DNA of 64,000 nt from an uncultured Candidatus Saccharibacteria bacterium (GCA_964411375.1 CAYPKR010000002.1:129960-193959); one strand, 5' to 3'. Shown: positions 238 to 42,054, counted from the first letter of the stretch. Notes: generated from the sequence alone by a model not told the origin. Numbers and translations are program-made.

Positions 238-618
238 TTAATCACGCATTGTTTGCGGAGAATAATCGTTTGAGGCACCGCTCTCCATTCGCGGCATCAT
301 GTTGTTGTTTAAATGGTGCATGATCCAAAGTGATCCGCCAACCACAATTGTGATGATTATCAGAGTGAAAGAAATTGCGGCAATATTCCACCTCGCCGAC
401 TTCCCTTTTCCGATATGGAGGAAGAAGAAAAGTTGAATAAAAAACTGAATGAGCGCAAGAAGAATGATCCATCCCACAAGCAGATTTCCTGAAAGCATAT
501 GGCTCGCAACCGGCACATACGCCGCGAGCGTCAAAACAATTGAGAGAACAAATCCGATGGTGTACGACAAAAATGTTCCATCTGATTTCTCTGTAGTTGT
601 GTGAATGTTGGTATCCAT
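238..618 (-). CDS. cyoD: Cytochrome o/bo3 quinol oxidase subunit IV
   Basis: 126-aa protein with three hydrophobic helices. Its position after cyoC in the cyoABCD(E) order supports the call. Confidence 0.8.
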   Translation of the reverse strand: MDTNIHTTTEKSDGTFLSYTIGFVLSIVLTLAAYVPVASHMLSGNLLVGWIILLALIQFFIQLFFFLHIGKGKSARWNIAAISFTLIIITIVVGGSLWIMHHLNNNMMPRMESGASNDYSPQTMRD

Positions 619-620
619 AA

Positions 621-1223
621 TTACAAAGCGCCAAAAAGATAGACAAACGTGAAAATAAAAATCCAGATGATATCAAGGAAATGCCAGAATAGGCTGAAGC
701 AGGCGAGTTTTCGCATCGTCGATCCGGAAAGATCCCGAAGGAACACATGCGCCATAATGACAATCATCCACACGGAACCCAAGAAGACGTGGAGTCCGTG
801 TGTACCGACGAGCGCAAAAAATGCCGAGAGCGATGCACTCTCACGCCACGATGCACCTTCATGTACAAATTTGCCGAACTCATATACTTCCATTGAAACG
901 AACACGAGTCCGAGGATAAGTGTCACAATGAGTGAAATCAGTACCGCACTTTTCTTTCTTTGATGTGCAAATAAAAGCGCGAGTCCCGCAGTGAACGAAC
1001 TCGTGAGAAGTAGCATCGTCTCAATCAAGACAAATGGCAAACTAGAGAGTCCACCGACTGACGGCGCACCAAATGTATTTCCTCGAAGCACCGCAAACGT
1101 TGCAAAGAGCGCAGCAAAGAGTACGCAGTCACTTAAAATATAAATCCAAAAACCAAACGTCACTGCTTCGGTCTTTTCCCCTTCCGGATGATCAGCATGT
1201 AATTGTACGGAATGACTCGTCAT
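621..1223 (-). CDS. cyoC: Cytochrome o/bo3 quinol oxidase subunit III
   Basis: 200-aa polytopic membrane protein with a subunit-III-like sequence (HADHPEGEK...FGFWIYILSDCVLFA). It follows the subunit I gene. Confidence 0.85.
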   Translation of the reverse strand: MTSHSVQLHADHPEGEKTEAVTFGFWIYILSDCVLFAALFATFAVLRGNTFGAPSVGGLSSLPFVLIETMLLLTSSFTAGLALLFAHQRKKSAVLISLIVTLILGLVFVSMEVYEFGKFVHEGASWRESASLSAFFALVGTHGLHVFLGSVWMIVIMAHVFLRDLSGSTMRKLACFSLFWHFLDIIWIFIFTFVYLFGAL

Positions 1224-1225
1224 GA

Positions 1226-3199
1226 TTATTTGTTGAACTTCAAGGCTTCAATTTTTGCAATCTCGCTTCCTGGAAGTGTGTATTCGATTTTCTCTTCGAA
1301 TGACCTTGCAATAATACTCGTCACAATTCCAGCAATCGACACGACAACCAGCCACCACATCTGCCACACCATCCCAAAGCCAAAGAGAAAACTGAATCCG
1401 GCGATCATGAGCCCTACACCAGTATTTTTCGGCAAGTGAATGTCATCATATTTTGGAAGAAGTGTCGGGAGTTTCCCTTCACGTTTCATTTCCCAAAAGG
1501 CGTCGCGTTTTCCGCCGTCCGGTATGACTGCAAAATTATACTCTGGAGCGGGCGAGGAAGTGCTCCATTCAAGCGTGCGCGCATTCCATGGATCTCCGGT
1601 CGTATCGGTGCGCAATTTTCGATTCCGAATTCCTTCGAAAATTTGTACCACTTGGAGGAAAATCGCGAACGCGATAATACATGCGCCAATAGCGGCAACG
1701 ATGAGAAGCGAATGCCAACCAGTCGATGCATCGATATGATCAAGACGGCGAGTCATTCCCATGAGTCCGAGGACATAGAGCGGAATAAATGCGAGTACGA
1801 ATCCGATTATCCATGACCAAAATACCCACGTTCCGATCCGCTCCGACAATCGATATCCAAAAATCTTTGGCCACCAATACGCAAGTCCGGCAAAAAATCC
1901 GAACAAGACACCGCCAATTATCATGTTGTGGAAATGCGCGACGAGAAAGAGCGTGTTATGAAATTGAAAATCCACCCCTGGAATTGCCATGAGTACTCCG
2001 GTCATTCCCCCTATCGTGAACGTAACCAAAAATCCCATGAACCAGAGCATCGGCGTCGCAAAGGTGATCCGTCCGCGGAACATAGTGAAAAGCCAGTTGA
2101 ATACTTTGACGCCAGTTGGAATTGAAATCGCCATCGTCATGATGCCGAAAAATGCATTTACGTTTGCGCCTGCGCCCATCGTAAAAAAGTGATGGAGCCA
2201 CACCATGAACGACATGACAACGATCAAGAGTGTTGCGATAACCATCGACGTGTAGCCAAACAGTCGCTTTGCCGAAAAAACGGGGACAATTTCGGAAAAG
2301 ATTCCGAACGCCGGCAAGATAAGAATGTAGACTTCCGGATGCCCCCACGCCCAGATGAGATTGACGTACATCATAAGATTGCCACCTCCGTCTGCCGTAA
2401 AGAAATGCATACCGAGATATCGGTCGAGTGAAAGCGTTGCGAGTGTTGCGGTCAAAATTGGAAATGCGAATAAAACCAAAATCATTGAGCCTAAGCTCGT
2501 CCACACAAAAACCGGCATATTCATGAGTCGCATATTCGGCGTGCGCATTTTCACAATCGTTACGATGAAGTTTACTGCCGCGAGCAAAGTTCCTACTCCG
2601 GCAATCTGGAGTGCCCATATATAGTAGTCAACGCCCACTCCCGGAGAATACGCCATTTCAGAAAGCGGCGGATACGCGAGCCAGCCGGTCGCCGCAAATT
2701 CGCCGATAACCAGGGACGCGTTCACGAGCATCGCTCCTGCAACCGTCATCCAAAAACTAAAAGAGTTTAAAAATGGAAATGCGACATCACGTGCGCCGAT
2801 TTGGAGTGGAACGATACAATTCAACAGTCCAAACATAAACGGCATGGCGACGAAGAAAATCATGATAACGCCGTGCGCGGTAAATATTTGGTCATAATGA
2901 GATGCTTCGAGGAAACCGTTTGAAGTGCCAACTGCGATCGCTTGCTGGCCGCGCATCATTAAGGCATCGACTCCGCCACGAAAGAGCATTACTCCCGCAA
3001 GAACGAGATACATGATGCCGATTTTTTTTGCATCTACGCTCGTGAGCCATTCTTTCCATAGCCATCTAAATCGTTTGGTGTACCAGAGAATCGCAATCAC
3101 CGAAACACCTCCAAGCACAACCATCATCTGCGCGCCGGTTTCAATCGGGCCGTGAATGAAGGAATCGATCGTCAGTTTTCCAAATAAGGTTTCGAGCAT
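1226..3199 (-). CDS. cyoB: Heme-copper quinol oxidase subunit I
   Basis: 657 aa with about 14 TM segments and conserved subunit I signatures ([22 protein letters not shown], histidine ligands). Confidence 0.92.
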
Positions 3200-3201
3200 A
3201 A

Positions 3202-4143
3202 TTAATGTGTGTGCATTTCCATTCCATCCATTGAATGAGAATGTTCGCTACCAACTTCATCCATTTCCGGCATCATAAATTTGTGGATGATTGAATCGAA
3301 CATCCCATCTTGGACACCGCCATAATATTGTACTGGATTATCACTTCGTGGTTTCTTCAGTACTTCGTATTCATAGTCATTCAACGTTGACGAAGAATTC
3401 TGAACGCCTTCGAGCCACTTTGAAAAATCTTCTTCCGAGCGTACTTGTGCCGTAAACACCATGCCTGCAAAATGCGGACCGCTAAAGTTTGCCGACGAGC
3501 CGCGATAATCACCAACCTTGTCTGCGATCAAATGAAGCGGCGTCTGCATTCCGGTCATTGCATATATTTGTCCGCCAAGTTGTGGAATCCAAAATGAATT
3601 CATCGGCGCATCTGCAGTAATTTTGAAATTGACTGGCGTGTCTACTGGAAACTGCACGAAATTCACCGTCGCAATGTGTTCATTTGGATAGATAAAAAGC
3701 CAGCGTGATGGAAGCGCGACCACTTGGATTTCAATCGGTGCAACTTCCGATTCGAGCGGCTTGTATGGATCAAGATCGTGTGTTGAGCCCCACGTAAGCG
3801 CACCAAGAACCAAAATAATTTCAAATGGAATCGCCCACCAAATGAGTTCGTCCATTTTTGCATGCTCCCAATCCGGTGTGTACGTGGCCGATGTATTCCC
3901 TGCCCGATAATGCCATGCAAAATAAAACGCGAGAATAAAAACGGGAATCACGACAATGAGCATAAGAAGGACTGCATTAATCATGAGCGTACGCTCTTTG
4001 GATGCGATGAGTCCATGCGGTTGTAAAATCGGAATCGGGTGTCCAAGCGTCAAAAATGCCAAGAGCCCCGCAAACGCGAGCGATGCAAATATAAAAATGA
4101 AAAGCTGGATCCGATGCCTCATCCTATGTGGAAAGTATAGCAT
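3202..4143 (-). CDS. cyoA: Quinol oxidase subunit II (CyoA-like) with a His/Met-rich C-terminal tail
   Basis: N-terminal TM anchors plus a cupredoxin-like periplasmic domain. The ORF-track start at 4206 would force translation through a perfect hairpin, so the start is trimmed to an internal Met (4143 or 4122). The C-terminus ends in ...[21 protein letters not shown]. Confidence 0.8.
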
Positions 4144-4157
4144 TCGGGTAGGACGGA

Positions 4158-4199
4158 AAATGCCGGATTTCGCCAAGGCGAAATCCGGCATTTTTCCTA
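4158..4199. terminator. Long perfect inverted repeat flanked by an A-tract and a T-tract; likely bidirectional intrinsic terminator between the VOC gene and cyoA
   Basis: GGAAAATGCCGGATTTCGCC-AAGG-GGCGAAATCCGGCATTTTTCC, a stem of about 18 bp. Confidence 0.5.
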
Positions 4200-4212
4200 C
4201 CTTCATTCCCTC

Positions 4213-5155: not shown

Positions 5156-5658
5156 AGAGGTGCGTTAATTGATACACGGGCAGTATATCACGCGAAGATG
5201 AGGGCTTCTTGAAGGAGAAAAAGGCGACGATTTTAGGCTCCCTTTAAGGGCGACAACGTACAAGCGAAACGCAACATACTTTCCTCTCTTAGTTCGAACC
5301 TAAAAATTACGTTGTGGCACAAGACTCAAAAGAAAAAAGAGCCAAAAGACCCTGTTTTTTTTACTTTGCTCGCCTTACTGAACGATTTTCGAACTTTTGA
5401 CTGGGCTTCCGAGTACAAATATCCGACTGTGGTACTCGACCAGATGAAAGGCCTGTTGGCCAAGTATGAGAACGTATAACCCCTGATTTTCCACCTGGTT
5501 GCCCCTGTGGCGAGCGTTCATGCACGGGACGACGATTGACACACTTCGCACCCTCGACCACCACGTTGCCCCGATTTGAACCCGTGGCGCAAAACTGTGG
5601 GTAACTGCGCCAAAATGAGCTTGGCTTCGCTCGCAAAAGAGCATAGGGTCGGGTTGCG

Positions 5659-5970
5659 ATGGAAGAATCCGTGGACATCGACGCGGCCATCAAAGCCGCC
5701 AAAGATATACGACTTAAATACCGGAAAGGCACGCTCAATCCGCTCTCTTTGCTTCCGGAGCCGAAAGCCAAACTAAAAGCCGCTTTGAAAGATCGTATGA
5801 GACTCCTTGCGGGCGTATACATTTCACTCGCCAGTTTCGTCGAGGATGGCGACGTGCTCTTTGCCGAGCGCAATCCGAAGTCAAAGAAAACAAAACGAAT
5901 ATATCTCAAAGTCCTCGAGGACATGGAAACGGCGCAGAAAGAACTGCGCCGTTTTAAGTTGTTGGAGTAA
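5659..5970 (+). CDS. Hypothetical small protein (103 aa)
   Basis: Protein-like composition (MEESVDIDAAIKAAKDIRLKYRKG...). The first in-frame ATG follows an in-frame stop. It overlaps the 3' end of the convergent KAP gene by 17 nt. Confidence 0.35.
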   Translation: MEESVDIDAAIKAAKDIRLKYRKGTLNPLSLLPEPKAKLKAALKDRMRLLAGVYISLASFVEDGDVLFAERNPKSKKTKRIYLKVLEDMETAQKELRRFKLLE

Positions 5971-8900
5971 CTTCGGCTGTAGTAGCTGCCGCTTGCGCCA
6001 CCTCGGCAACATTATCATCCAAGACTTTATAAACCATCGGTATATATTTCTTATAGGATGCCTCGTCATTTCCTACGAACACAATTTTATCCTTGTCCTC
6101 AAGTTTAAGTGCTTTAAAGGCATCACCATGCTTTTGCCAAAAGGCAGCAAGTTTTACTTTATCTAGTACCTTCGTAAATTCATTGATACTTGGTACATAT
6201 TTCAATCCATCTTCTCGCGCAGAAGCAAACGCATTGGCGAAATTACGGAATAGATAATCGATAAAATATTCAGCATTTTGGGTTTTGGTTGGATCAAAAC
6301 ATACCTCAAATAAATAATTATTCACCGCATCTCTAATTCCCTGATTATCTCCAGTTCCGGCAGGATCATAGTAGCCGCATCCCGCCCCTAGGTTGATTTC
6401 AGCATTTGCCATTTGATAAAGAATGAATGCTCCGACTCTTGTCTTAAGTTCGATGGTTTTCTTCTCAAGATCTTCAACCTTGAAAACACCCTCAGATATT
6501 TTTTGATTTACAAAATCCCCGTATTTTCCAACAAGGTCGCTTGTCTCTAGAGCATCAATTTCTTCAAAGATATTTTTCTTTGGGACAATATAACGAGTAT
6601 TAAATATATCGAAGGCCTTTTGAGATATTTCTCTCATTTCTTCGCATGCAATATCTCTCGTAGAACCTTGTGTTGGAGCGTTCGGATTAGCATGTTGTGC
6701 TACAGCACGGGATAAATCAAAAATATCACCGCCACGGTCTGCGCTACACGATAATCTAAAAAGCATCAGGTCATGAACTCCTAGTACGCCTCTGCTTTCT
6801 TCCGAAAGCCTGCCGAGAACTCCGTTACCGGCATGTCGGCCGTCACCAAATATCCATTCAGCAATTTCTGCGATATGCGGCTCTACGTTGTTGGCATGTT
6901 TTCCTGCCGGATCAATCCAGCCAGCGTCATTGAGTAGCCTCGTGAGGAAATAATCGAGATTATGCCGTAATCCCATGCCCACATTCGGATCGCCCATTTC
7001 AAGCAATGAATATTCGGGTATCGTGTTTAAGAGATGATCAATAATTTCTGTTGCAATATCGTGCGGCAATTCTCGAGCATTATTTACCAATATGCGCCAT
7101 AGTCGCTCTCTAGGATATTCTCCCTCTGTATAGGCAAATTTTGGATCAGCAAAGGCCGAAGCAACAGTTGTTGTTTTATCTAGAATCTTTTCTCTCCATG
7201 ACATATAAAACCTATGTTGACCAATATCTACAGGTTTGGAGAGATTTACGATCAAATCCAAGTATGTCTCAAGATTTCTTCCATTCGTCCAGCCACCATT
7301 GAAACACGCAAGCGAAGTACGCACATCCTCCGGTACACTGTCGATGCGGGCATAGTCATTTCCTCGTGGGAAGCTTTCTCCGAGTGACTTGAGCCTTACA
7401 TCAACGTTAAATACTTGATCTAAAAGGAAACGTTGGTGACTATCTTTGGGAAATTGCTCAAGATATTCGTGGTAATAAGTCGAGTTCTTGTAGGTAGAGT
7501 CGCTGAAAGATGAGCGTCGTTGGCCATTAGTATCTTCCGGATAGCCATCTTCGTGAGGTAGCACGAGAGAAAAGAAACCGCGTCCACCTTTTGTTTCAGT
7601 ATCATATATTTTTCGAAAGACACTCGGATAGTGGATATAAATCAGCAATAGGTTAATAAGGTCTCTCTTGTCGAAATCGCTGTTTTGGAAATTAGTGTTT
7701 TGAAGATCAAACATCAAAACGGTATTTATAAGCCGCTTCAGTTTTCTAACATCTCCAATGAATGGAAGATACCGGTGGTAAATTGATGATTTGTATATAT
7801 CAAGTAAACCGCCCACCGCTTGCCGTACAGGAAGCGGGTCGACCAAGCTAGTCGTAAGCGTTTTTTCAAGATTGTCGGACACGTAGTTTGCCAGATCTGC
7901 CCGTTCCAAGTAAAGACTAATCTTTATATTCACAAACTTTTCTAAAAATTCACCAACCTTTTCTATATCCGGAGTTTCAGCTTCTAAAATGCCGATGTTT
8001 TCAGTGTCATAACAAATAACATAAGAGACGTTCGGAAATGCAAAGCTCTTTCTAATAACAAATAGGATTTCTTTTATTTCCTCAAAACTTATCCGGTCCA
8101 AATCGTCGATAACAATTATCACTTTCTTTGGAAAACGTTTAAGCACAGCACCTAAGTCATCACATGCTTCGTCGGCCGTGTAATCAACTGCAAACGATGG
8201 CAAAGTTAGTCCGAACAGAGAGAATCTGCTTATTTCTTTTAATAGTCGAGCGTAGCGTGAGATCAGCGGCTTAATTTCAGGAATGAAGGAGTCTTTCTGT
8301 ATTGCATGAATAAGTCCATCAATGAATATCTCAAGTAGGTTGGCTGTTCCGAGATAACGCAGAGGACTAAATTTGTATATGACAACCTCTCTTGCATGTT
8401 TCTCCTCCCAATATTCTTTGCAAAAGTTAATGAAAGTTGATTTTCCGATACCCCATGGCGCGTCCACGCCAAATACAAAGCTTTCAGGCGATCCACTATT
8501 AAAGACCTGCTCTGCGAACCTCTCTGCTTTTTCTGAAAAGTTAAGAAGATCGCTATCTTTGTTCTCTAATTCCTTATCTACAACAAACGATGAGTCGTTC
8601 TTTTTCTCATTCCAGATAAGTACTAACTGTCTCAACATTACAAGTATCCCCAAAATAAATGGAGCGGAAATAAGAGTAAGTATTTGAAGAATATTCAAGG
8701 ACGAGACAATTTTTATGTCCCAGTTTGATAAAAAACCTCCCCAAACTACACTTAACAAAATTCCAAAGACAAAAGCGACGACAACATCGATACGTCCACT
8801 TTTAGCAATCTTTTTAATATCGGAAAAGATGCCACGCGCCAGTAGGTATAAGATCAGCAAAGCAACTCCAAATAGAGATAGCGTTATAGCGGCACTCTCG

Positions 8901-9082
8901 TAATTACTAACTTCGATCCACTTATTGAGCTTATCTGAAAGCAGTAGTGATAAATGCCACACCTCTGCACTTAAGATACCTAAGAAGGCTGTTTTGATCA
9001 GCATTACCAAATTTGCCGTTATGATACGGAAATCGGAGAGAGTTTCTCCTAGTTTTTTGATAGATGGTTTAATTTCTCTCAT
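5954..9082 (-). CDS. KAP-family P-loop NTPase, membrane-anchored (defense-island NTPase)
   Basis: 1042 aa. About four hydrophobic helices precede the Walker A motif GVDAPWGIGKSTFINF. A Walker B motif VIIVIDDLDR follows, then a long helical C-terminal region, which is typical of KAP NTPases. The gene is A+T-rich. Confidence 0.8.
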   Translation of the reverse strand: MREIKPSIKKLGETLSDFRIITANLVMLIKTAFLGILSAEVWHLSLLLSDKLNKWIEVSNYESAAITLSLFGVALLILYLLARGIFSDIKKIAKSGRIDVVVAFVFGILLSVVWGGFLSNWDIKIVSSLNILQILTLISAPFILGILVMLRQLVLIWNEKKNDSSFVVDKELENKDSDLLNFSEKAERFAEQVFNSGSPESFVFGVDAPWGIGKSTFINFCKEYWEEKHAREVVIYKFSPLRYLGTANLLEIFIDGLIHAIQKDSFIPEIKPLISRYARLLKEISRFSLFGLTLPSFAVDYTADEACDDLGAVLKRFPKKVIIVIDDLDRISFEEIKEILFVIRKSFAFPNVSYVICYDTENIGILEAETPDIEKVGEFLEKFVNIKISLYLERADLANYVSDNLEKTLTTSLVDPLPVRQAVGGLLDIYKSSIYHRYLPFIGDVRKLKRLINTVLMFDLQNTNFQNSDFDKRDLINLLLIYIHYPSVFRKIYDTETKGGRGFFSLVLPHEDGYPEDTNGQRRSSFSDSTYKNSTYYHEYLEQFPKDSHQRFLLDQVFNVDVRLKSLGESFPRGNDYARIDSVPEDVRTSLACFNGGWTNGRNLETYLDLIVNLSKPVDIGQHRFYMSWREKILDKTTTVASAFADPKFAYTEGEYPRERLWRILVNNARELPHDIATEIIDHLLNTIPEYSLLEMGDPNVGMGLRHNLDYFLTRLLNDAGWIDPAGKHANNVEPHIAEIAEWIFGDGRHAGNGVLGRLSEESRGVLGVHDLMLFRLSCSADRGGDIFDLSRAVAQHANPNAPTQGSTRDIACEEMREISQKAFDIFNTRYIVPKKNIFEEIDALETSDLVGKYGDFVNQKISEGVFKVEDLEKKTIELKTRVGAFILYQMANAEINLGAGCGYYDPAGTGDNQGIRDAVNNYLFEVCFDPTKTQNAEYFIDYLFRNFANAFASAREDGLKYVPSINEFTKVLDKVKLAAFWQKHGDAFKALKLEDKDKIVFVGNDEASYKKYIPMVYKVLDDNVAEVAQAAATTAEVTPTT

Positions 9083-9147
9083 GCTTAATACATCAATTAT
9101 CCACTTTTTAAGTTGAGATGTAAAGAATTGTAAAGTATAATTCTATT

Positions 9148-9324
9148 ATGACAGGCAAAGAGTTCTACACCGCTCAAGAATTAGCCGATAAATTAGGGGT
9201 AAATATTATGACTATTTACCGCTATATCAAAGCTAAGAAATTCAAGGCCTATAAATTAGGTAAGGAATTCAGAATAGACAAAGCCGATTTCAAATCTTTC
9301 ATGGAAAAGGCAAAGACCATTTAA
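9148..9324 (+). CDS. Small excisionase/MerR-type HTH DNA-binding protein (59 aa); putative controller of the R-M operon
   Basis: Translation from ATG at 9148 gives MTGKEFYTAQELADKLGVNIMTIYRYIKAKKFKAYKLGKEFRIDKADFKSFMEKAKTI. The ORF is below the 60-aa cutoff of the supplied track. Its stop lies 3 nt before the methyltransferase start. Confidence 0.65.
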   Translation: MTGKEFYTAQELADKLGVNIMTIYRYIKAKKFKAYKLGKEFRIDKADFKSFMEKAKTI

Positions 9325-9327
9325 TTT

Positions 9328-11313
9328 ATGCAAACACTTCCCATTAATACTAAAACAATAGACCTGGAAGAAGCAGGGACTCTGCTCGGGGTTTCGGGCG
9401 CAACCATACGAAATTGGATCAGACATAGCTATATCACCCCTGAAAACACCACTAATAAGAAAATGGTGTTTAAACATGCCGAGATACAAGAGCTGAAAAA
9501 CAAAATCGAATCTGGAGAAATAAGTCGTTTGAGCAAACGTGCCAACAAAAGGAATTCATCAAATACTTTTATTCCTGATGAGTATGCCGACAACGACGAG
9601 GTCTATGTACTTGTAAAAGAGATTATCGATATTTATCGATCAAATGATCTCAACAAAGATAGCGTCATATTTTCCTTATTGCTTAACGTACTTAAGAACG
9701 TTGGATTAGTTGAATACCCGACGACTTTTGATATTTCGAAGATCACCTTTAAAAGCAAAACAGTAGAACAAGAGCTTAGTTGGTGGCTAAAAAACGCGCA
9801 GCATAATTTGGCCTCAAATAACTATAGCGATCTCTTGAATATTGATCTGCCAAAGGTTAATGACATCGTTGGACTCATTTATCAGTCCTTAAGTAATGAG
9901 GGGGATAAAGCAGAAGGCGGTTCTTATTACACTCCCAAGGTGGTAGTGGATGAGGCTGTAGAAAGATATATTAAACAGGACTTACTTGTTCTCGATCCAT
10001 GCTGTGGTACAGGTCAGTTTCTTCTATCGGCCTCTAAGAAAATTAAAAATCCAAGCAATATTTGGGGTTTCGATATAGATGAAAAAGCCGTAAGAATAGC
10101 GAGATTGAATCTCTTGGCTCAATACCCAAGGGAAGACTTTGTACCAAATATTTTTCATAGAAATACACTTCTTTCTTCGAGAGGTCTTTTTGGGAACGAT
10201 ACTCCTGAATTTGATGTAGTAATAACCAATCCGCCTTGGGGAGTACATTTTTCTTCCTCTGAAATTAGAGAGCTGGGGGCACTCTATCCATATATAAATT
10301 CCAACGAAGCTTTCTCATATTTTATCGCTAGAGGCTTAGAATTCTTAAAAGAAGGCGGCGTTTTGTCGTACATTCTTCCAGAATCAATTTTGAATGTTAA
10401 ATCTCACAGAGACATTCGAGAGATACTGCTTACAAAAACAAGAATAAAGAAAGTTAAGCATCTTGATAGAGTCTTTAAAAATGTTTTTACGCCGGTGATT
10501 AGGCTTGATGTGGCTAAATTAACTCCTGAAGATACAGATGAGTTTGAGGTTGAAAAAGCAGAATTGAAACACACAATTAAGCAATCCCGCTTGAAGAATA
10601 ACAATGATTATTTGTTTGATGTATTTAATGGAGATCAAGAACTAGGTATTTTTGAGAAAGTCTATAGTGTCGATCATACAACTCTTAAAAATAACGCCGA
10701 ATGGGCATTGGGCGTAGTAACCGGAGACAACAAGAAACATCTTAAAGAGACTAAATCGAGTGAATTTGAACCCATTTTAACCGGCAAAGAAATAAAGAGG
10801 TTTATAGTGGCTCAACCAAAGAATTTTATTAAATTTGAACCTGGTAAATTCCAGCAGGTAGCTCCGGAATATAAATATAGGGTGCCAGAGAAACTCATTT
10901 ATAAGTTCATCTCAAAGGACTTGGTATTTTCCTATGACAATCAGCAAACCCTTACATTAAATAGCGCAAATATTCTTATCCCGGAGGTAGAAAATTACCC
11001 AGTAAAAACTATTCTCGCGCTATTTAATTCATCGCTTTATCAATTCATATACCAGAAAAAGTTTGGTGCTATAAAAATCTTGAGAAGTGATCTTGAACAA
11101 TTACCGCTCCCCATCCTTCCAGCGAATCAGCATGAAAGATTGAACTTACTTGTTGAGAGATTGCTTGATACTGATCTTGGATTAGAGGAAAGAAAATCGG
11201 AATATCTCAAACTTGATAATGCTATATTATCCCTGTTTTCCTTAAGCAAGGTTGAACAGGAATATATAAGATCAAACGTAAAAATGTCGGACAAATTATT
11301 AAACTTTCAATAA
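9328..11313 (+). CDS. Type II N6-adenine DNA methyltransferase, gamma class (Eco57I/TaqI-like) with an N-terminal HTH
   Basis: 661 aa. Motif I is VLDPCCGTGQFL, motif IV is NPPWG, and a C-terminal TaqI-like specificity region is present. The N-terminus LEEAGTLLGVSGATIRNWIRH is an HTH. Confidence 0.9.
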   Translation: MQTLPINTKTIDLEEAGTLLGVSGATIRNWIRHSYITPENTTNKKMVFKHAEIQELKNKIESGEISRLSKRANKRNSSNTFIPDEYADNDEVYVLVKEIIDIYRSNDLNKDSVIFSLLLNVLKNVGLVEYPTTFDISKITFKSKTVEQELSWWLKNAQHNLASNNYSDLLNIDLPKVNDIVGLIYQSLSNEGDKAEGGSYYTPKVVVDEAVERYIKQDLLVLDPCCGTGQFLLSASKKIKNPSNIWGFDIDEKAVRIARLNLLAQYPREDFVPNIFHRNTLLSSRGLFGNDTPEFDVVITNPPWGVHFSSSEIRELGALYPYINSNEAFSYFIARGLEFLKEGGVLSYILPESILNVKSHRDIREILLTKTRIKKVKHLDRVFKNVFTPVIRLDVAKLTPEDTDEFEVEKAELKHTIKQSRLKNNNDYLFDVFNGDQELGIFEKVYSVDHTTLKNNAEWALGVVTGDNKKHLKETKSSEFEPILTGKEIKRFIVAQPKNFIKFEPGKFQQVAPEYKYRVPEKLIYKFISKDLVFSYDNQQTLTLNSANILIPEVENYPVKTILALFNSSLYQFIYQKKFGAIKILRSDLEQLPLPILPANQHERLNLLVERLLDTDLGLEERKSEYLKLDNAILSLFSLSKVEQEYIRSNVKMSDKLLNFQ

Positions 11314-11316
11314 AAC

Positions 11317-12057
11317 ATGCAACTTCTAAAGGAAAAACTTAATCAGTTAATCGATGAGCTCTCCGCAGATAAAAAGGAGATGATACGGGGACGGCTTGCC
11401 GATCTTATCTCCGTATACCCGTTCAATGAGTACGAATATATAATCTCCTCCCTTATGGGTTTTGGAAAGATTACGCTCGATGATTACCTTGAAATCAGGG
11501 ATGAATATATCGCACGAAACATGTATCTCTATATCTTCGAAATAGGCTCGCCTCGCGGTTTCGGAGAGCAATGGGCTCAAGGTCATCTTAAAGAGTTGGT
11601 TCCGGAGCTAGTAAAGCCCACAAAGAAAGTAGAGGAAAACTACAAGGGAGATTATGATTTTTTATTACCCAATCAGGATGATCTGATAAGAATTGAAGTA
11701 AAAGCCTCGAGAGCAGTTGATGGAGCTAGTGCTGAACCTTTGTATGTAAAAGCTCTTGCTTTCGAAAACAAGCAACCTTTCTGGATGAACTTTCAACAGA
11801 TTAAGCCAGCTCACTGTGATGTGTTTGTGTGGGTTGCTGTGTGGAGAGACGTGATCAAATACTGGGTGCTCTCATCGGATGAAGTAAAAGCAAATAAATA
11901 CTATTCTAAAGGCCAACATAGAGGAAATGTTGGAGAAGGCCAGTTGCATATTAAGGATGACAATATTAAGGATTTTCAGATTTACGAAGTCAAACCAAAC
12001 GAACTTAAAGACGCTATCGTTAGAGCGTACGAGCGACAGAAAGGTATCACTAAGTAA
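11317..12057 (+). CDS. Putative type II restriction endonuclease (PD-(D/E)xK-like)
   Basis: 246 aa, starting 4 nt after the methyltransferase stop. It contains a D...DDLIRIEVKAS pattern compatible with a PD-ExK active site. No other identifiable family signature was seen. Confidence 0.5.
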   Translation: MQLLKEKLNQLIDELSADKKEMIRGRLADLISVYPFNEYEYIISSLMGFGKITLDDYLEIRDEYIARNMYLYIFEIGSPRGFGEQWAQGHLKELVPELVKPTKKVEENYKGDYDFLLPNQDDLIRIEVKASRAVDGASAEPLYVKALAFENKQPFWMNFQQIKPAHCDVFVWVAVWRDVIKYWVLSSDEVKANKYYSKGQHRGNVGEGQLHIKDDNIKDFQIYEVKPNELKDAIVRAYERQKGITK

Positions 12058-12150: not shown

Positions 12151-12813
12151 ATGATTATGAAGATGAAAAAGGCCTTACTGGCCAGGACATATACACTCAA
12201 TACGAACCGGTCCGTGGGTAAAGCAACCACGTATCTGTTTTCTATATCAGCCATTACCGGCGAATTGCGATCCGCGCTTAAGGATTTTGCGGATGTTGAG
12301 CGGCCGGCCGAGATCGTAAAGACCAGCGATCCGGCTATTCAAGCTCTCGTCGGCGCACTCAATCGAAACAGCGAAAGCATCGAATCCATGACACGTGCCT
12401 ATCTTACTGCTTTGAATAAAATTGCAGATTTGGAAACGAGCGTTGCGAAACTCACGGCCGAAGGCGCAGCGTACGGCCTTGCCGGCAAGCGAACTAAACC
12501 AGCAGACAAAAAGACAATCTATCTTTCGAACGATGGCGACTTATACCGCGAGCCGAAAGCGAAGCATTGTTATGCGATGGGCAAGGAAAAGCAACGCCAG
12601 AAGATCGTGCGGGTCCTACTTGAAAGGAAGACCTATGTGCCCACGGATGCGCTCGTGGAGCTCTCCGGCAGTAAGAATCGCAAATCACTGCACAACGCGA
12701 AACTCATGATCAATCGCAAAGTGCGGTACGCGCTGGGTATTGAAAACTTTATCGTCGGCCGCGCGGTAAGCGGCTACAAACTCAATCCGGAATACAAAAT
12801 AAAGCAGGTGTAG
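12151..12813 (+). CDS. DNA-binding protein with a C-terminal OmpR/PhoB-type winged helix
   Basis: 220 aa. The C-terminus KIVRVLLERKTYVPTDALVE...NRKVRYALGIENFIVGRAVSGYKL matches the Trans_reg_C wing pattern (..RLR.KL.....I.TVRG.GY.L). The GC content is higher than in the adjacent R-M genes. Confidence 0.5.
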   Translation: MIMKMKKALLARTYTLNTNRSVGKATTYLFSISAITGELRSALKDFADVERPAEIVKTSDPAIQALVGALNRNSESIESMTRAYLTALNKIADLETSVAKLTAEGAAYGLAGKRTKPADKKTIYLSNDGDLYREPKAKHCYAMGKEKQRQKIVRVLLERKTYVPTDALVELSGSKNRKSLHNAKLMINRKVRYALGIENFIVGRAVSGYKLNPEYKIKQV

Positions 12814-13210
12814 CTCTGGTGTAGTTAATAAGTTGGTACTGCAAGCAGCAAAACGGCTGCTTTTTTCGTATCTGGCTACACGTCCGCAGTATGGTAAACG
12901 CCCATTCATGCTTGCAACAATAAAAGCGTGTGAGAGGAAGTTAATGACAATGAAAATGCCACATGCAAAACAATTATTACAAAACCGCCGATCTGGCATT
13001 GGTCGCGGTGCTTTTATTATTCATTCCTGATTCTCTGGAGGTCGTGGATCGGGGAAATCCGCACAAGGTGCTCTTTTGTTTCGGCAAGAGCCCTGACTTG
13101 GATTCTCTGGTGAAGCGATACTGGAATCGCGAGCTTGTGGTCGAACCGCAGGCGTTCTTCAACCAGCTCAAACAGGTCAAAGTACGGATTTATGCCGAGG
13201 ACTAAGACCT

Positions 13211-13420
13211 GTGAAAATCAAACCGGAAACGCTGGAGAAACTCCGCGCGATCCTGAAGCACGACTTCAGTCTTGAGGTAAGCGACCAAGACCTGCACGAC
13301 ATCGCCTTCAATCTGGTGCGGTACTACGACGCGCTATCGCGGTTTTACGTCGAGGACATCACGAGCGGCCGCACGCTCATCGAACCCTATGACACCCAAC
13401 CCAAGCGAACAAAAGCATAA
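13211..13420 (+). CDS. Hypothetical small protein (69 aa)
   Basis: ORF in the higher-GC recombinase module. It overlaps the next ORF by 32 nt in a different frame. Confidence 0.3.
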   Translation: MKIKPETLEKLRAILKHDFSLEVSDQDLHDIAFNLVRYYDALSRFYVEDITSGRTLIEPYDTQPKRTKA

Positions 13421-13961
13421 GGTCCGAGACTACCGCGAAGCGCCGTTTGCCTACCAAGACAAACCAGCCTTGCGCTTTATGCGCCAGGAATGGATCGACA
13501 AAAGAATAAGCGACGATGCATATCGCAACCTGCGCAACGTGTACTGTGCGCTTACCGAGATCGCATCGAATAAAGCGAGCCAAACCATCGAAGCGTCGAA
13601 TAAGACGATGCTTCTCTACTGTGGGCTCAAAGACTGGCGGACGATTAAGAAATGCTTGGACACGCTCGAAGTGTGGGCGTTTATCGCGATCACCAAAGTT
13701 CGCGGCGCGGATGCCAAGTTCAAGCCGCGAAGCATCACACTTCTTTCCGTCCTACATCTGGCGCAGGATGGTGGCCGATCTGCACGTGAAGCCATACGGC
13801 AAAGCACGCACACAGGCTGCGAGGCAGAAGATAAAGAAGCTAAGGGATTAAAAGAAATTAAAGAAAATTATAAAGAAACTAGCGGTGACTTCGAGAAAAT
13901 AAAGGAAATTCGGCAAATGAAGGCTCAATTACTGAAGAAAATGAGTATGCGAGGCAAATAA
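13389..13961 (+). CDS. Hypothetical protein (190 aa), cargo of the element
   Basis: Protein-like composition with a Lys/Glu-rich C-terminus. No recognisable motif. Confidence 0.4.
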   Translation: MTPNPSEQKHKVRDYREAPFAYQDKPALRFMRQEWIDKRISDDAYRNLRNVYCALTEIASNKASQTIEASNKTMLLYCGLKDWRTIKKCLDTLEVWAFIAITKVRGADAKFKPRSITLLSVLHLAQDGGRSAREAIRQSTHTGCEAEDKEAKGLKEIKENYKETSGDFEKIKEIRQMKAQLLKKMSMRGK

Positions 13962-14175: not shown

Positions 14176-15792
14176 ATGATTATGACTATGAATCAAGAAA
14201 ATCAACCCTTACGCGCCGTCGGCTACGCTCGCGTGTCGTCCAAGGATCAGGAAGACACCGGCTATTCGCTGCCGGCGCAAGAAAAGCTTCTGCGGGATTA
14301 TGCCGACCGGAATGGCTACGATCTGGTCAAAGTATTTGCCATTCAAGAATCGGCCGCGGGCAAGGTCCAGCGCAAGATATTTCACGAAATGATGGAGTAT
14401 GTGTCGAAAGCGAAAATCACTACGATCTTCGTCGAGACGACTGACCGCCTTACGCGCAACTTCGCCGATGTGCCGGTTATCGACGAGTGGATTCTTGCCG
14501 ACGAGAAGCACATGATCCATCTCGTCAAAGAAAGCTGCACGCTCCATAAAGACTCGAAATCTCACGAATGGTTTATGTGGCGCGTGAAAGTTGCTACAGC
14601 CGAGTACTACATCCGGCTCCTTTCCGAGAACGTGAAGAAAGGCCAGAAAGAAAAGCTGGCGCAAGGCTGGCTACCGACACGGCCGCCGCTTGGCTATAAA
14701 ACCATCGGCGAGAAAGGACATAAAATCCATGTGCTCGATGAGGACAAAGCGCCGATCGTCAAAAGAATGTTCGAACTGTATGCTACCAACATCAGCTCGA
14801 CCAAAAAGCTTGCCGATGAAATGTACCGGCTCGGTATGCGCTCGCGTGGAGGCAACAAGGTAAGCCACTCACGCGTGCACCAGCTCCTTGGCGATCCGTT
14901 CTATTACGGTATGAACCGCTGGAACGGCAAAGTCGCGCAAGGCAATCATGAGCCTCTGATCACCAAAGAATTATTTATGCGATGCCAAGACATCATGCAC
15001 AGCAACGGCACGCCAAAATACAACAAACACAATTCGCTTTTTAAGAACGTGTTTAAGTGCGAGGAATGCAAAGGCCGCGTAACATGGGAGATACAGAAAG
15101 GCCACTGGTACGGACACTGCAACCATTACAAGAATTGCACGCAGCGCGAATATGTCCGGCAAGAAACGGTCGATGAGCAAGTCATGGAAAATATCGAGCA
15201 GTTAAGCTCAAAGCATGACGAAGCCATCGAGCATATGCTCACCTGGGTCCAAGAAGCTCTCAAGGAAAGCCACAGCGAGGAAATAGAATTTAGGGAAAAG
15301 GCCACCGGCGAGCTTGAACGACGTTATCAAATGGCAACCCAGCGGCTCGACAAGATATATGACGATAAGATCGACGGCAAAATCAGCGAGGAGTTCTATC
15401 AGAAAAAGTATGCTCAATACAAGCTTGAGCAGGAAGAAGTGATGGATAGCCTCAATAAGCATAAGAATGCCAATCTCAAGTACTACGACATGGGCTCGAC
15501 GTTCTTGCAGATGGCCAAGGAGGCACGAAGGATTTACCTCAACCGAAGCACTATCGAGATGGTCGATGACAAGAAGCTCTTAATGTCTCTATTATTTTCG
15601 AACTCGACCATAAATAGCAAGAAAGTTGATATTTCATACCATAAAGCCTTCAAAATCATCTCCGATCGCGTGATGCAGATGTTGGGAGAAAAAATACCCA
15701 AAAATAAAACTTTCGAACCGCCAAAAAAGCCCGTCAATAAAGGAAAAACACCAGCTTTCGCTGATGTTAATCCTATCTGGCTCCGGCGGTAG
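14176..15792 (+). CDS. Large serine recombinase (resolvase catalytic domain + recombinase domain + zinc ribbon)
   Basis: N-terminal catalytic domain LRAVGYARVSSKDQ (catalytic Ser). A Cys-rich zinc beta-ribbon CEECKGRVTW...GHCNHYKNC is present. The protein is 538 aa. The last 5 codons are encoded by the 3' end of the tRNA-Asn gene. Confidence 0.9.
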   Translation: MIMTMNQENQPLRAVGYARVSSKDQEDTGYSLPAQEKLLRDYADRNGYDLVKVFAIQESAAGKVQRKIFHEMMEYVSKAKITTIFVETTDRLTRNFADVPVIDEWILADEKHMIHLVKESCTLHKDSKSHEWFMWRVKVATAEYYIRLLSENVKKGQKEKLAQGWLPTRPPLGYKTIGEKGHKIHVLDEDKAPIVKRMFELYATNISSTKKLADEMYRLGMRSRGGNKVSHSRVHQLLGDPFYYGMNRWNGKVAQGNHEPLITKELFMRCQDIMHSNGTPKYNKHNSLFKNVFKCEECKGRVTWEIQKGHWYGHCNHYKNCTQREYVRQETVDEQVMENIEQLSSKHDEAIEHMLTWVQEALKESHSEEIEFREKATGELERRYQMATQRLDKIYDDKIDGKISEEFYQKKYAQYKLEQEEVMDSLNKHKNANLKYYDMGSTFLQMAKEARRIYLNRSTIEMVDDKKLLMSLLFSNSTINSKKVDISYHKAFKIISDRVMQMLGEKIPKNKTFEPPKKPVNKGKTPAFADVNPIWLRR

Positions 15793-15852
15793 GATTCGAA
15801 CCTACAACCAACGCGTTAACAGCGCGCTGCTCTACCATTGAGCTACACCGGA
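15778..15852 (-). tRNA. tRNA-Asn (anticodon GTT)
   Basis: Minus-strand sequence: TCCGGTGTAGCTCAATGGTAGAGCAGCGCGCTGTTAACGCGTTGGTTGTAGGTTCGAATCCTACCGCCGGAGCCA. It has a cloverleaf with a 7-bp acceptor stem, GTT anticodon, GGTTCGAATCC T-arm and an encoded CCA. A TAGAAT -10 element lies about 10 nt upstream. Confidence 0.85.
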
Positions 15853-26126: not shown

Positions 26127-26218
26127 CATGAAGAATAGTGGATTTGAAAGTACTGTGATTGTAGTACATATTGAGAAAAAATCGAGCGCCCGGAATGTTT
26201 CATCCGGGCGCAAAATGA

Positions 26219-39662: not shown

Positions 39663-39752
39663 TCAATATATGATAGCAATCGAACGAATAAGCACCAACA
39701 TACATTTCCTTAAGGCTTCATCAAAAACTCGACCGAAAGGAGTATTTAAATT

Positions 39753-42053: not shown

Positions 42054-42054
42054 A

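What the first reader, a model, noticed from the sequence alone, without database searches (positions are those of the whole stretch)
5954..9082. KAP NTPase with about four transmembrane helices placed N-terminal to the Walker A motif
About 170 residues with four hydrophobic helices precede the Walker A motif GVDAPWGIGKST, and a Walker B motif hhhhDDLDR follows. In described KAP NTPases the TM helices are usually inserted within the NTPase domain. An N-terminal membrane anchor plus an alpha-rich C-terminal region of more than 600 aa suggests a membrane-localised sensor or abortive-infection effector, PifA-like.
Basis: partly seen in the sequence, partly recalled or inferred. Interest (0 to 1): 0.55.

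Follow-up and report, generated by a model that had tools for sequence, protein, structure and literature searches.

The report
Membrane-anchored KAP NTPase on mobile island
A 1,042-residue protein has four membrane helices in front of an uninterrupted KAP-type ATPase and a unique helical tail; it sits beside a restriction system on a small mobile island next to a tRNA gene, and is most likely an uncharacterised single-gene defence protein that spreads among ultra-small (CPR) and other bacteria.

Summary
ORF 5954..9082 (- strand, 1042 aa) has four N-terminal hydrophobic helices. They are followed by an uninterrupted KAP NTPase domain (Pfam 3.4e-38; Walker A GVDAPWGIGKST, Walker B IIVIDDLDR) and about 586 all-alpha residues.

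Control KAP proteins carry their TM helices in a 110-160-residue insert between Walker A and Walker B. This protein has no such insert.

The protein belongs to a fixed-architecture family of about 250 clusters at 50% identity. Members occur in many Patescibacteria and also in Paenibacillus, Pseudomonas, Burkholderia plasmids and others. The C-terminal domain occurs only in this architecture and has no specific structural relative.

The gene lies on a low-GC island of about 10 kb. The island also holds an excisionase-type HTH gene, a type II restriction-modification operon and a large serine recombinase whose 3' end overlaps tRNA-Asn. In homologous loci the restriction system and the recombinase differ while the KAP gene stays.

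"PifA-like" is true only for the NTPase domain. PifA has no TM helices and an unrelated C-terminus.

Best reading: a mobile, membrane-anchored, single-gene KAP defence protein. It is a new variant of a known kind, and its mechanism is inferred rather than shown.

The parts
5954..9082 (-). Complete gene for the 1042-aa 4TM-KAP NTPase-alpha-domain protein
   Evidence: ORF list and translation. An identical protein is in the public collection on a 270-kb contig.
8942..9022 (-). TM1 (residues about 21-47). It contains Glu40, conserved in 42 of 47 family members.
   Evidence: KD peak 1.88. AF2 helix 18-59. Glu40 conservation.
8837..8893 (-). TM2 (residues about 64-82)
   Evidence: KD peak 2.45. AF2 helix 62-83.
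8786..8800 (-). Cytoplasmic loop-2 motif S95-x-R97-x-D99 at the start of TM3
   Evidence: S95 and R97 are invariant in 47 of 47 members and D99 in 46 of 47, at 28-85% overall identity. The loop is K/R-rich, mean 4.7.
8729..8791 (-). TM3 (residues about 98-118)
   Evidence: KD peak 2.55. AF2 helices 98-113 and 119-128.
8612..8692 (-). TM4 (residues about 131-157)
   Evidence: KD peak 2.38. AF2 helix 131-160.
7715..8530 (-). KAP family P-loop NTPase domain (residues 185-456), not interrupted by TM helices
8435..8470 (-). Walker A GVDAPWGIGKST (residues 205-216)
   Evidence: Translation. G211, G213 and K214 are invariant in 47 members.
8093..8119 (-). Walker B IIVIDDLDR (residues 322-330)
   Evidence: Translation. 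D326, D327, D329 and R330 are invariant.
7235..7714 (-). Middle helical region (residues 457-616) including the conserved ACFNGG motif. It is modelled poorly when separated from the NTPase domain.
   Evidence: Alignment A1. AF2 models.
5957..7234 (-). C-terminal all-alpha domain (residues 617-1042), specific to this family. It has invariant R706, D771, R776, R817, S820, Q821, Y905 and C928, and near-invariant C593, C779 and C902.
9083..9147 (.). 65-bp divergent intergenic region with back-to-back sigma-70-like sites. These are consensus matches only.
   Evidence: TTGAGA-17-TATAAT on + (9113-9141) and TTTACA-17-GATAAT on - (9124-9096).
9148..9324 (+). 58-aa excisionase-family HTH (HTH_17 type), divergent from the KAP gene and first gene of the RM operon
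   Evidence: NCBIfam TIGR01764 3.8e-13. It is 72-74% identical to the HTH_17 gene beside KAP in L001-L003/L007 and to an HTH ORF in L015, and 63% identical to the one beside KAP in L009. These loci carry different RM systems.
9328..12057 (+). Type II restriction-modification cargo: N6-adenine MTase (9328-11313) and REase (11317-12057)
   Evidence: Pfam N6_Mtase, Eco57I and TaqI_C. PADLOC MTase_II 2.7e-125 and REase_II 5.2e-75. GC 0.36-0.41.
12151..13961 (+). Two element-backbone ORFs of unknown function: 220 aa (12151-12813) and 190 aa (13389-13961)
   Evidence: 70% and 78% identical to ORFs in the same order in L019. No family hit.
14176..15792 (+). Large serine recombinase, the island's integrase
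   Evidence: Pfam Resolvase, Recombinase and Zn_ribbon_recom. 89% identical to the recombinase of L019.
15778..15852 (-). tRNA-Asn(GTT). Its 3' end overlaps the recombinase stop region. Probable integration site and right border of the island.
   Evidence: ARAGORN and Rfam, 73.6 bits. Same geometry in L002 and L055.
5659..5970 (+). 103-aa ORF convergent with the KAP gene and overlapping it by 17 nt. Possibly the last gene of the island.
   Evidence: 68% aa identity to an ORF beside KAP in L011. No family hit.

Best explanation
The gene encodes a stand-alone, membrane-anchored KAP-family NTPase. It is cargo of a small integrative element of about 10 kb that uses a serine recombinase and sits beside a tRNA gene. 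Its most likely role is to protect the host and the element against phages or other invading DNA.

Shown here:
- Four N-terminal helices with N-in topology place the NTPase and the C-terminal domain on the cytoplasmic face of the membrane.
- The NTPase has intact Walker A and Walker B motifs and conserved Arg/Lys residues (R446, K447).
- The architecture is fixed across about 250 sequence clusters.
- The gene travels horizontally with recombinases and with interchangeable restriction-modification systems, and has no constant partner gene.

Inferred, by analogy with STAND/NLR-type NTPases, Tmn, PifA and the tested KAP fusions:
- The C-terminal alpha-solenoid-like domain binds a trigger. This could be an invader protein or a conserved ligand.
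- Binding releases NTP-dependent switching or oligomerisation of the KAP domain.
- This change is passed through the invariant juxtamembrane S-x-R-x-D loop to the 4-TM bundle, which carries a conserved Glu in TM1.
- The bundle then alters membrane permeability or ion balance and halts the infection.

I put about 0.6 on the defence role and about 0.35 on the TM bundle being the effector.
For: Architecture and topology.

Conservation across 47 members from several phyla at 28-85% identity:
- S95 and R97 are invariant, D99 is kept in 46 of 47 and E40 in 42 of 47.
- All Walker residues are invariant.

Defence-type similarity:
- PADLOC PifA 3.8e-29 and QatA 3e-10.

Island signals in the window:
- GC is 0.40 for KAP and 0.35-0.41 for HTH/RM, against 0.467 in the flanks.
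- A type II RM operon is adjacent.
- A large serine recombinase overlaps tRNA-Asn.

The same pattern elsewhere:
- ApaLI RM in L001.
- Type III RM in L009, L019 and L008.
- N6_N4 methylases and a ResIII protein further along the element in L005.
- Mrr-type nucleases in L029 and L033, HNH in L063, and an HSDR_N nuclease in L074.
- A large serine recombinase lies within 10 kb in at least 13 distinct loci.
- tRNA genes sit at the element edges.
- Recombinase and RM families are the most recurrent among 147 nearest neighbours, and no family is constant.

Horizontal spread:
- KAP hits at 74-85% identity occur in contigs named Paceibacterota, WS5, Yonathbacteria, Peregrinibacteria, Adlerbacteria and an Ignavibacteriaceae bin.
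- Members at 28-42% occur in Paenibacillus, Pseudomonas, Massilia and Stenotrophomonas, and on conjugative Burkholderia glumae plasmids.
- The host's DnaG finds named relatives only at 44-55% identity.

Literature:
- KAP NTPases fused to C-terminal regions of unknown function protect E. faecalis from phages. Protection needs Walker B and the C-terminal region (PMC13552941).
- PifA causes membrane leakage on T7 infection, and Tmn couples ATP hydrolysis to Mg2+ export (PMC13001434).
Against: - No member of this family has been tested.
- PADLOC has no model for it. The PifA match covers the NTPase domain only.
- The C-terminal domain is almost as conserved as the NTPase (0.55 against 0.64) and carries invariant polar and Cys residues. 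This fits an enzyme or a conserved-ligand site better than a diversifying sensor, so the effector could be the C-terminus and the TM bundle only an anchor.
- Many loci outside Patescibacteria show ordinary housekeeping neighbours.
- Only one of 2.9 million viral contigs carries the family.
- The AF2 model has moderate confidence (pTM 0.51), and no oligomer or pore was modelled.
Confidence: 0.6

Rival explanations
1. Same defence role but a different division of labour. The conserved C-terminal domain is the effector: an unrecognised enzyme or a cofactor/metal-binding module using C593, C779, C902 and C928 with R706, D771, R776, R817, S820, Q821 and Y905. The 4-TM segment only localises the protein at the membrane, where invading DNA enters.
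For: The C-terminal domain is highly conserved with invariant polar residues and four (near-)invariant cysteines. It is found only in this architecture. Deleting the C-terminal region abolishes defence in EF_KAP (PMC13552941). The TM segments are the least conserved part of the protein.
Confidence: 0.25
2. The protein serves the mobile element rather than the host. It could exclude competing elements or incoming DNA at the membrane (entry or superinfection exclusion), or stabilise the element, and anti-phage protection would at most be a side effect.
For: It is always the edge gene of serine-recombinase elements. In L004, L005, L012 and L022 it is convergent with the recombinase, overlapping it in L004 and L005. 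It is retained while the RM cargo and even the recombinase are swapped: KAP is 86% identical and the recombinase 28% between the window and L002. [quoted passage not shown]
Against: Many family members in Paenibacillus, Pseudomonas and others have no recombinase or element genes within 3 kb. This reading is hard to separate from defence on sequence alone.
Confidence: 0.15
3. The protein is an accessory or regulatory subunit of the neighbouring restriction-modification system, comparable to ATPases attached to BREX or Dnd systems. It is not an autonomous system.
For: RM genes are its commonest functional neighbours. In L019 and L008 it starts 15 bp after a type III res gene on the same strand.
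Against: The RM partner changes type between close relatives (type II Eco57I/TaqI-like, ApaLI, type III, Mrr, HNH) while KAP stays 70-86% identical. In the window the KAP gene is transcribed divergently from the RM operon. Many loci have no RM gene nearby.
Confidence: 0.07
4. The protein is a housekeeping membrane scaffold or signalling NTPase of Patescibacteria, in the sense of eukaryotic Kidins220/ARMS, and is unrelated to conflict.
For: The family is abundant and well conserved in Patescibacteria. KAP NTPases were first proposed to regulate the assembly of membrane-associated complexes (Aravind et al. 2004, as summarised in PMC13001434).
Against: The phyletic pattern is patchy and crosses phyla, and members sit on plasmids. 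GC is low and the gene lies on an island. KAP is more similar across CPR classes than the host's DnaG. One locus (L006) keeps KAP beside a decayed recombinase.
Confidence: 0.05

Closest known systems
[quoted passage not shown]
   Same: Single-gene layout of membrane helix or helices, KAP NTPase and a C-terminal region with no recognisable domain. Found beside serine recombinases on mobile DNA. Defence there depends on Walker B and on the C-terminal region.
   Different: EF_KAP has one N-terminal TM helix plus one inside the KAP domain, Walker B at D246/D247 and a 322-aa tail. Here there are four TM helices, all N-terminal, Walker B at D326/D327 and a 586-aa tail. The recombinases there are small serine recombinases; here they are large ones. 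I could not obtain the tested sequences to check homology of the tails.
PifA of the F plasmid (T7 exclusion)
   Same: KAP NTPase domain (PADLOC PifA 3.8e-29; BLASTP 22.7% identity over 366 aligned positions, E 3e-14). Carried on mobile DNA. Its phenotype is at the membrane.
   Different: PifA is 741 aa with Walker A at residue 53 and no hydrophobic segment (maximum KD 1.27). Its C-terminus is unrelated, and it sits in a pifC-pifA operon.
Classical prokaryotic KAP NTPases and Kidins220/ARMS, with TM helices inserted in the NTPase domain (Aravind et al. 2004)
   Same: Same NTPase family with the same Walker A and hhhhDD[LI][DE]R Walker B. The protein is associated with the membrane.
   Different: In the controls L069 and L070 the TM segments sit in a 113-157-residue insert between Walker A and Walker B. 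That site corresponds to window residues about 258-298, where this protein has only a short low-confidence loop. Its TM helices precede the domain.
[quoted passage not shown]
   Same: A membrane-integrated single-protein NTPase defence with solenoid-type arms thought to sense a phage protein. ATP turnover is coupled to a membrane or ion effect.
   Different: A different NTPase family with two TM helices inside the P-loop domain. No sequence match was found here. The decameric assembly and Mg2+ export are known only for Tmn.
STAND/NLR-like defence NTPases (Avs) and RADAR RdrA
   Different: KAP rather than the NACHT/NB-ARC clade. An N-terminal 4-TM module stands in place of a nuclease, protease or TIR effector. 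There is no RdrB-like neighbour.
QatA of the QatABCD system
   Same: KAP-type ATPase (PADLOC QatA 3.2e-10).
   Different: NCBIfam QatA scores 25 bits against a cut-off of 600. No QueC-like or TatD-like neighbours were found.

Membership tests
KAP family P-loop NTPase (Pfam PF07693) | Match to the family profile above the curated threshold | tested here: met
   132 bits against a cut-off of 20, E 3.4e-38, profile positions 4-287 of 293.
KAP family P-loop NTPase (Pfam PF07693) | Walker A GxxxxGK[ST] and KAP-type Walker B hhhhDD[LI]DR | tested here: met
   GVDAPWGIGKST at 205-216 and IIVIDDLDR at 322-330. Both are invariant in 47 members.
KAP family P-loop NTPase (Pfam PF07693) | TM helices (two or four) inserted within the NTPase domain. 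This is typical of many members but not universal; PifA lacks them. | tested here: not met
   There is no hydrophobic segment between Walker A and B, and the domain is uninterrupted. The controls L069 and L070 show the insert.
PifA (F-plasmid phage exclusion protein) | Full-length homology to PifA, including the C-terminal about 400 residues | tested here: not met
   BLASTP aligns only window residues 149-456 to PifA 3-356. There is no significant C-terminal match.
PifA (F-plasmid phage exclusion protein) | pifC-pifA operon context on an F-like plasmid | tested here: not met
   The window neighbours are an HTH gene, an RM operon and a serine recombinase on a chromosome. The F-plasmid layout is shown.
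PifA (F-plasmid phage exclusion protein) | Exclusion of T7 triggered by gp1.2 or gp10, with membrane leakage | not testable with these tools
   This needs infection assays.
QatABCD | QatA equivalog score and QatB/C/D neighbours | tested here: not met
   NCBIfam QatA scores 25 bits against a cut-off of 600. No QueC- or TatD-like neighbour was found.
Tmn / YobI-family TM NTPase | YobI-type P-loop domain with two TM helices inserted in it | tested here: not met
   The only Pfam match is KAP_NTPase, and PADLOC lists no Tmn model among its hits. The TM helices are N-terminal.
Antiphage KAP NTPase fusions (PMC13552941) | KAP NTPase domain fused to a C-terminal region without a known domain, next to a serine recombinase | tested here: met
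   for the tail. for the recombinase linkage. The recombinases here are large rather than small.
Antiphage KAP NTPase fusions (PMC13552941) | Experimentally shown phage protection that depends on Walker B and on the C-terminal region | not testable with these tools
   No member of this family is reported as tested. The sequences of the tested proteins are not held.
Integrative element with a large serine recombinase | Large serine recombinase (Resolvase + Recombinase + Zn ribbon) at one end, abutting a tRNA gene, with atypical composition | tested here: met
   Parallel loci.
Integrative element with a large serine recombinase | Both att sites and an empty site in a related genome | tested here: inconclusive
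   Only a 10-nt repeat (5293 and 15795), expected by chance with P about 0.2. The left border was not resolved.

The most novel reading that the evidence does not exclude
The family is a distinct class of membrane-effector immune NTPase. Its four N-terminal helices, with the conserved Glu in TM1 and the invariant S-x-R-x-D gating loop, would form an NTP-gated ion or solute conduit when the KAP domains oligomerise. The family-specific C-terminal domain, with four conserved cysteines, would be a new ligand- or cofactor-binding sensor fold. It would then be one of the few non-RM defence proteins that circulate widely on small tRNA-associated serine-recombinase elements in genome-reduced Patescibacteria.
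Probability: 0.25. Interest if true: 0.6.

Novelty: new variant of a known kind. Interest (0 to 1): 0.42.

Why it matters
- KAP NTPases were predicted in 2004 to act in conflict with foreign DNA, and were shown only in 2026 to include potent single-gene anti-phage proteins. Their mechanisms are unknown.
- This family has a fixed and easily recognised architecture: 4 TM helices, then KAP, then a unique conserved domain.
- It has strictly invariant residues in each module, which are ready-made targets for mutagenesis.
- It has orthologues in cultivable hosts (Paenibacillus, Pseudomonas, Burkholderia plasmids).
- It is also a recurrent cargo gene of small mobile islands in Patescibacteria. That group is reported to lack most classical defences apart from restriction-modification (PMC12455944).
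- If it is a defence protein, it widens the known immune repertoire of these ultra-small bacteria. It also provides a tractable model for how a KAP switch couples to the membrane.

Tried and rejected
- Signal peptide or buried strands instead of TM helices: rejected. There are four consecutive segments with helical AF2 models, a positive-inside pattern and hydropathy beyond all shuffles.
- Counting KD segments over the whole protein is not informative on its own. Shuffles give 0-8 such segments, so I used clustering statistics instead.
- PifA orthology: rejected.
- QatA, RADAR and Tmn membership: rejected.
- Sequence search of solved structures with the family profile: nothing.
- The AlphaFold-database fold library was not available.
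- att repeats of the island: only a 10-mer compatible with chance.
The host lineage was inferred from DnaG homologues.
- Phage carriage: one weak hit in annotated phages (NTPase domain only) and one locus in IMG/VR. That locus looks like the same kind of recombinase element.
- Aravind et al. 2004 could not be read, and supplements of the 2026 KAP paper are not held.
- The antisense ORFs inside the gene (for example 8373-8687 on +) are conserved only because the KAP frame is conserved. I did not treat them as genes.


Full report
**1. Observation**

The interval 5954..9082 is one ORF on the - strand, 1042 codons with an ATG start. Its product has Walker A GVDAPWGIGKST at residues 205-216 and Walker B IIVIDDLDR at 322-330.

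Pfam KAP_NTPase matches residues 185-456 (E 3.4e-38, 132 bits against a cut-off of 20). The match is a single stretch covering profile positions 4-287 of 293.

Hydropathy gives four segments in front of the domain, at about 21-47, 64-82, 98-118 and 131-157, with peaks of 1.88-2.55. Nothing after residue 170 exceeds 1.38.

A plain count of hydrophobic windows is not significant, because shuffles give 0-8. The clustering is significant:
- The best 137-residue window has mean hydropathy 1.28, against a maximum of 1.07 in 5000 shuffles.
- Three peaks >= 2.3 never occurred in 5000 shuffles.

An AlphaFold2 model built on 26 homologues (mean pLDDT 74, pTM 0.51) makes these segments helices with pLDDT about 70-84. 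It places the P-loop core strands at 203-207, 233-238, 320-325, 352-358 and 386-389.

Across the 26 sequences the K+R counts are 2.9, 1.5, 4.7, 1.0 and 3.8 for the N-tail, loop 1, loop 2, loop 3 and the post-TM4 linker. This is the positive-inside pattern of an N-in, four-helix anchor with the NTPase in the cytoplasm.

**2. Where the TM helices sit relative to the NTPase fold**

I took KAP ORFs from 55 related loci. In all of them three or four hydrophobic segments precede Walker A, which lies at position about 118-232 (about 180-232 in all but one). None has a segment in the roughly 115 residues between Walker A and Walker B.

Two distant KAP proteins picked up by the same scan serve as controls (L069 from Hwanghaeella, L070 from an archaeon):
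- The Pfam domain is stretched there: 343 residues for 241 profile positions, and 444 for 286.
- A profile of this family's NTPase domain aligns to them in two pieces, separated by 157 and 113 residues that hold the TM segments.
- The break maps to window residues about 258-298.

At that spot the window protein has only two short helices and a low-confidence loop (274-301, 'RFSLFGLTLPSFAV').

This is not unique to the family. A 903-aa protein on Bacillus thuringiensis plasmid pBMB400 aligns from residue 16 to 493 (25% identity), with N-terminal hydrophobic segments and a KAP domain but a different tail.

The literature is not uniform on this. The 2004 paper's title speaks of TM segments inserted within the domain. 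A 2026 preprint describes KAP as having four TM helices outside the P-loop domain and PifA as lacking them. EF_KAP is modelled with one N-terminal TM helix and one internal.

**3. The family**

A search of 5.8 billion proteins gave 368 hits. The best 120 are all about 1000-1090 aa, cover 92-100% of the query (95% or more in all but one) and are 45-100% identical. Where they are named, they come from Patescibacteria (Paceibacterota, WS5, Yonathbacteria, Peregrinibacteria, Parcubacteria).

A scan of one genome per species found 64 loci. Besides many Patescibacteria they include:
- isolates of Paenibacillus and Cohnella;
- Pseudomonas, Stenotrophomonas, Massilia and Roseateles;
- MAGs of Methylophilaceae, Ignavibacteriales, Flavobacteriaceae, Rhodothermaceae and Micavibrio.

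Full-length members at 30% identity sit on conjugative Burkholderia glumae plasmids. There the gene is followed by a second, short KAP gene and surrounded by integrases, a toxin-antitoxin pair and a transposase.

In an alignment of 47 members (28-85% identity) the conserved positions are:
- TM region: S95 and R97 invariant, D99 46/47, E40 in TM1 42/47, G107 46/47.
- NTPase: K214, D326, D327, D329, R330, R446 and K447 invariant.
- C-terminal part: R706, D771, R776, R817, S820, Q821, G903, Y905, C928, F929 and W982 invariant; C593, C779 and C902 45/47.

Mean conservation is 0.64 for the NTPase, 0.55 for residues 617-1020 and 0.34-0.46 for the TM helices.

**4. The C-terminal region**

- The family profile finds no solved structure by sequence.
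- A separate model of residues 458-1042 is confident for 617-1042 and all-alpha.
- Foldseek against the PDB has no hit with E < 0.02.
- phmmer with residues 617-1042 against 1.84 billion representatives finds 252 proteins. Nearly all hits over 900 aa carry the domain at about residues 570-1050, which is the same architecture. Shorter hits look like fragments.

The domain is therefore family-specific, of unknown function and too conserved to look like a diversifying sensor.

**5. Genomic setting in the window**

GC falls from 0.467 in both flanks to 0.40 in KAP, 0.345 in the next gene and 0.36-0.41 in the two after it.

To the left lie a cyoABCD-type quinol oxidase operon and two VOC/glyoxalase-type genes.

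To the right, 65 bp from the KAP start and divergent, are in order:
- a 58-aa excisionase-family HTH gene (TIGR01764, 3.8e-13);
- an N6-adenine methyltransferase (N6_Mtase, Eco57I, TaqI_C; PADLOC MTase_II 2.7e-125);
- a type II restriction endonuclease (PADLOC 5.2e-75);
- two unknown ORFs;
- a large serine recombinase whose last codons overlap tRNA-Asn(GTT).

The 65-bp spacer holds back-to-back promoter-like hexamers. These are consensus matches only.

DnaG, RpoC and an AddA-like helicase further along show this is a chromosome. DnaG's named relatives are Patescibacteria at 44-55% identity.

**6. The same element elsewhere**

- P0002 locus (KAP 85-86% identical): the order is KAP | HTH_17 | ApaLI endonuclease + N4/N6 methylase | small ORFs | large serine recombinase overlapping tRNA-Gln. 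Its recombinase is only 28% identical to the window's.
- L019 (UBA6033): the recombinase (89% aa) and the two unknown ORFs (78% and 70%) match the window. The cargo is a Fic protein plus a type III RM system that ends 15 bp before KAP.
- L009: HTH_17 plus type III RM.
- L004, L005, L012 and L022: KAP is convergent with the recombinase, overlapping it in L004 and L005. In L004, L005 and L022 a tRNA gene lies 100-200 bp upstream of KAP. This layout is the circular permutation of the window's layout.
- L006: KAP is kept beside a decayed recombinase.
- The single IMG/VR locus again has a large serine recombinase next to KAP, with an HSDR_N-type nuclease and repressor-like genes.
- Outside Patescibacteria, the nearest genes include Mrr-type endonucleases (L029, L033), an HNH protein (L063) and an RNase T-type exonuclease (L053).

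Among 147 nearest-neighbour ORFs from 42 further loci, the most recurrent Pfam families are those of the large serine recombinase (6-7 ORFs) and RM components. No family is constant, and many neighbours are housekeeping genes.

KAP is thus a self-contained gene that rides on, and is exchanged between, small integrative elements next to a slot for interchangeable restriction systems.

**7. Horizontal transfer**

KAP proteins at 74-85% identity occur in contigs assigned to several CPR classes and to an Ignavibacteriaceae bin. The host's DnaG has only five relatives above 60% identity, all unnamed, and its named relatives are at 44-55%.

**8. What it most likely does**

Shown here:
- a membrane anchor with the catalytic and C-terminal parts in the cytoplasm;
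- intact NTPase motifs;
- a fixed three-module architecture;
- mobility, and the company of restriction systems and recombinases.

Established elsewhere:
- KAP NTPase fusions with unknown C-terminal regions protect against phages and need Walker B and the tail. EF_KAP is not abortive (PMC13552941).
- PifA causes membrane leakage on T7 infection.
- Tmn, a different TM NTPase, senses a phage protein through solenoid arms and couples ATP turnover to Mg2+ export (PMC13001434).

Inferred:
- The C-terminal helical domain binds the trigger.
- The KAP domain switches or oligomerises on NTP.
- The invariant S-x-R-x-D loop and the conserved Glu40 link this change to the four-helix bundle, which perturbs the membrane.

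The main weakness is that the C-terminal domain, not the TM bundle, carries most of the invariant polar residues and four conserved cysteines. It may itself be the effector, which I list as the first rival.

**9. Comparison with known systems and verdict**

The protein is a bona fide KAP family member by profile and motifs. It lacks the intradomain TM insert.
- It is not a PifA orthologue: the NTPase domain is only 22.7% identical, PifA has no TM helices, and the tail and operon differ.
- It is not QatA: 25 bits against a cut-off of 600, and no Qat neighbours.
- It is not Tmn/YobI, and not RdrA.
- It fits the recently defined class of anti-phage KAP fusions, but with its own N-terminal 4-TM module and its own tail.

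I found no paper on this family. Databases call it only 'KAP family NTPase' or 'P-loop NTPase fold protein'.

Verdict: a real feature, and a new variant of a known kind. Interest is moderate.

Noticed in passing
window 238-4206 (-): A four-gene haem-copper quinol/cytochrome oxidase operon (COX4_pro, COX3, COX1, and a subunit II-like gene with the COX_ARM motif). The genome's DnaG places it in Patescibacteria, a group usually described as lacking respiratory chains.
   Followed up: partly
window 15778-15852 (-) and 14176-15792 (+): tRNA-Asn(GTT) overlaps the last 15 nt of the large serine recombinase gene. tRNA-Gln does the same in L002 and L055. In L004, L005, L006, L020 and L022 a tRNA lies just upstream of the KAP gene instead.
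   Followed up: yes
window 9148-12057 (+): A compact operon of excisionase-type HTH, N6-adenine methyltransferase (Eco57I/TaqI_C type) and type II endonuclease, with the lowest GC of the window (0.35-0.41). The HTH gene is 72-74% identical to the HTH_17 gene beside KAP in L001-L003/L007 and to an HTH ORF in L015, and 63% to the one in L009, although those loci carry different RM systems.
   Followed up: partly
window 5357-5518: A 162-nt stretch is 82% identical to L019 19656-19817. It contains the 3' end of an ORF (...DFRTFDWASEYKYPTVVLDQMKGLLAKYENV*) with no start codon in the window. It is a gene remnant or a small conserved gene near the unresolved left border of the island.
   Followed up: partly
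window 5659-5970 (+): A 103-aa ORF convergent with the KAP gene overlaps its stop by 17 nt. It is 68% identical to an ORF beside KAP in L011 and has no family match.
   Followed up: partly
window 12151-13961 (+); L019 2485-4334: Two ORFs of unknown function (220 and 190 aa) lie between the RM cargo and the recombinase. They are conserved in the same order in L019 (70% and 78% aa). They are probably backbone genes of the element.
   Followed up: partly
L071 (Burkholderia glumae plasmid pR52p) 7950-12385: The full-length family member (999 aa) is followed directly by a second, short KAP NTPase (446 aa, one hydrophobic segment). This may be a two-KAP arrangement.
   Followed up: no
window residues 274-301 of the KAP protein (nt about 8180-8263): A low-confidence, moderately hydrophobic loop (RFSLFGLTLPSFAV) lies at the position where classical KAP proteins carry their TM insert. 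It could be a vestige of the insert or a membrane-touching loop.
   Followed up: partly
window 36483-43878 (-): A 1059-aa protein with a pectate-lyase-like beta-helix and a Peptidase_S74 (endosialidase chaperone) domain, followed by two adjacent GH130 phosphorylase genes. A 1557-aa Peptidase_S74 protein also occurs in L004.
   Followed up: no
window 24981-26213 (-): A GT4 glycosyltransferase also matches the Pfam 'GT4-conflict' family (2.5e-08), far from the island.
   Followed up: no
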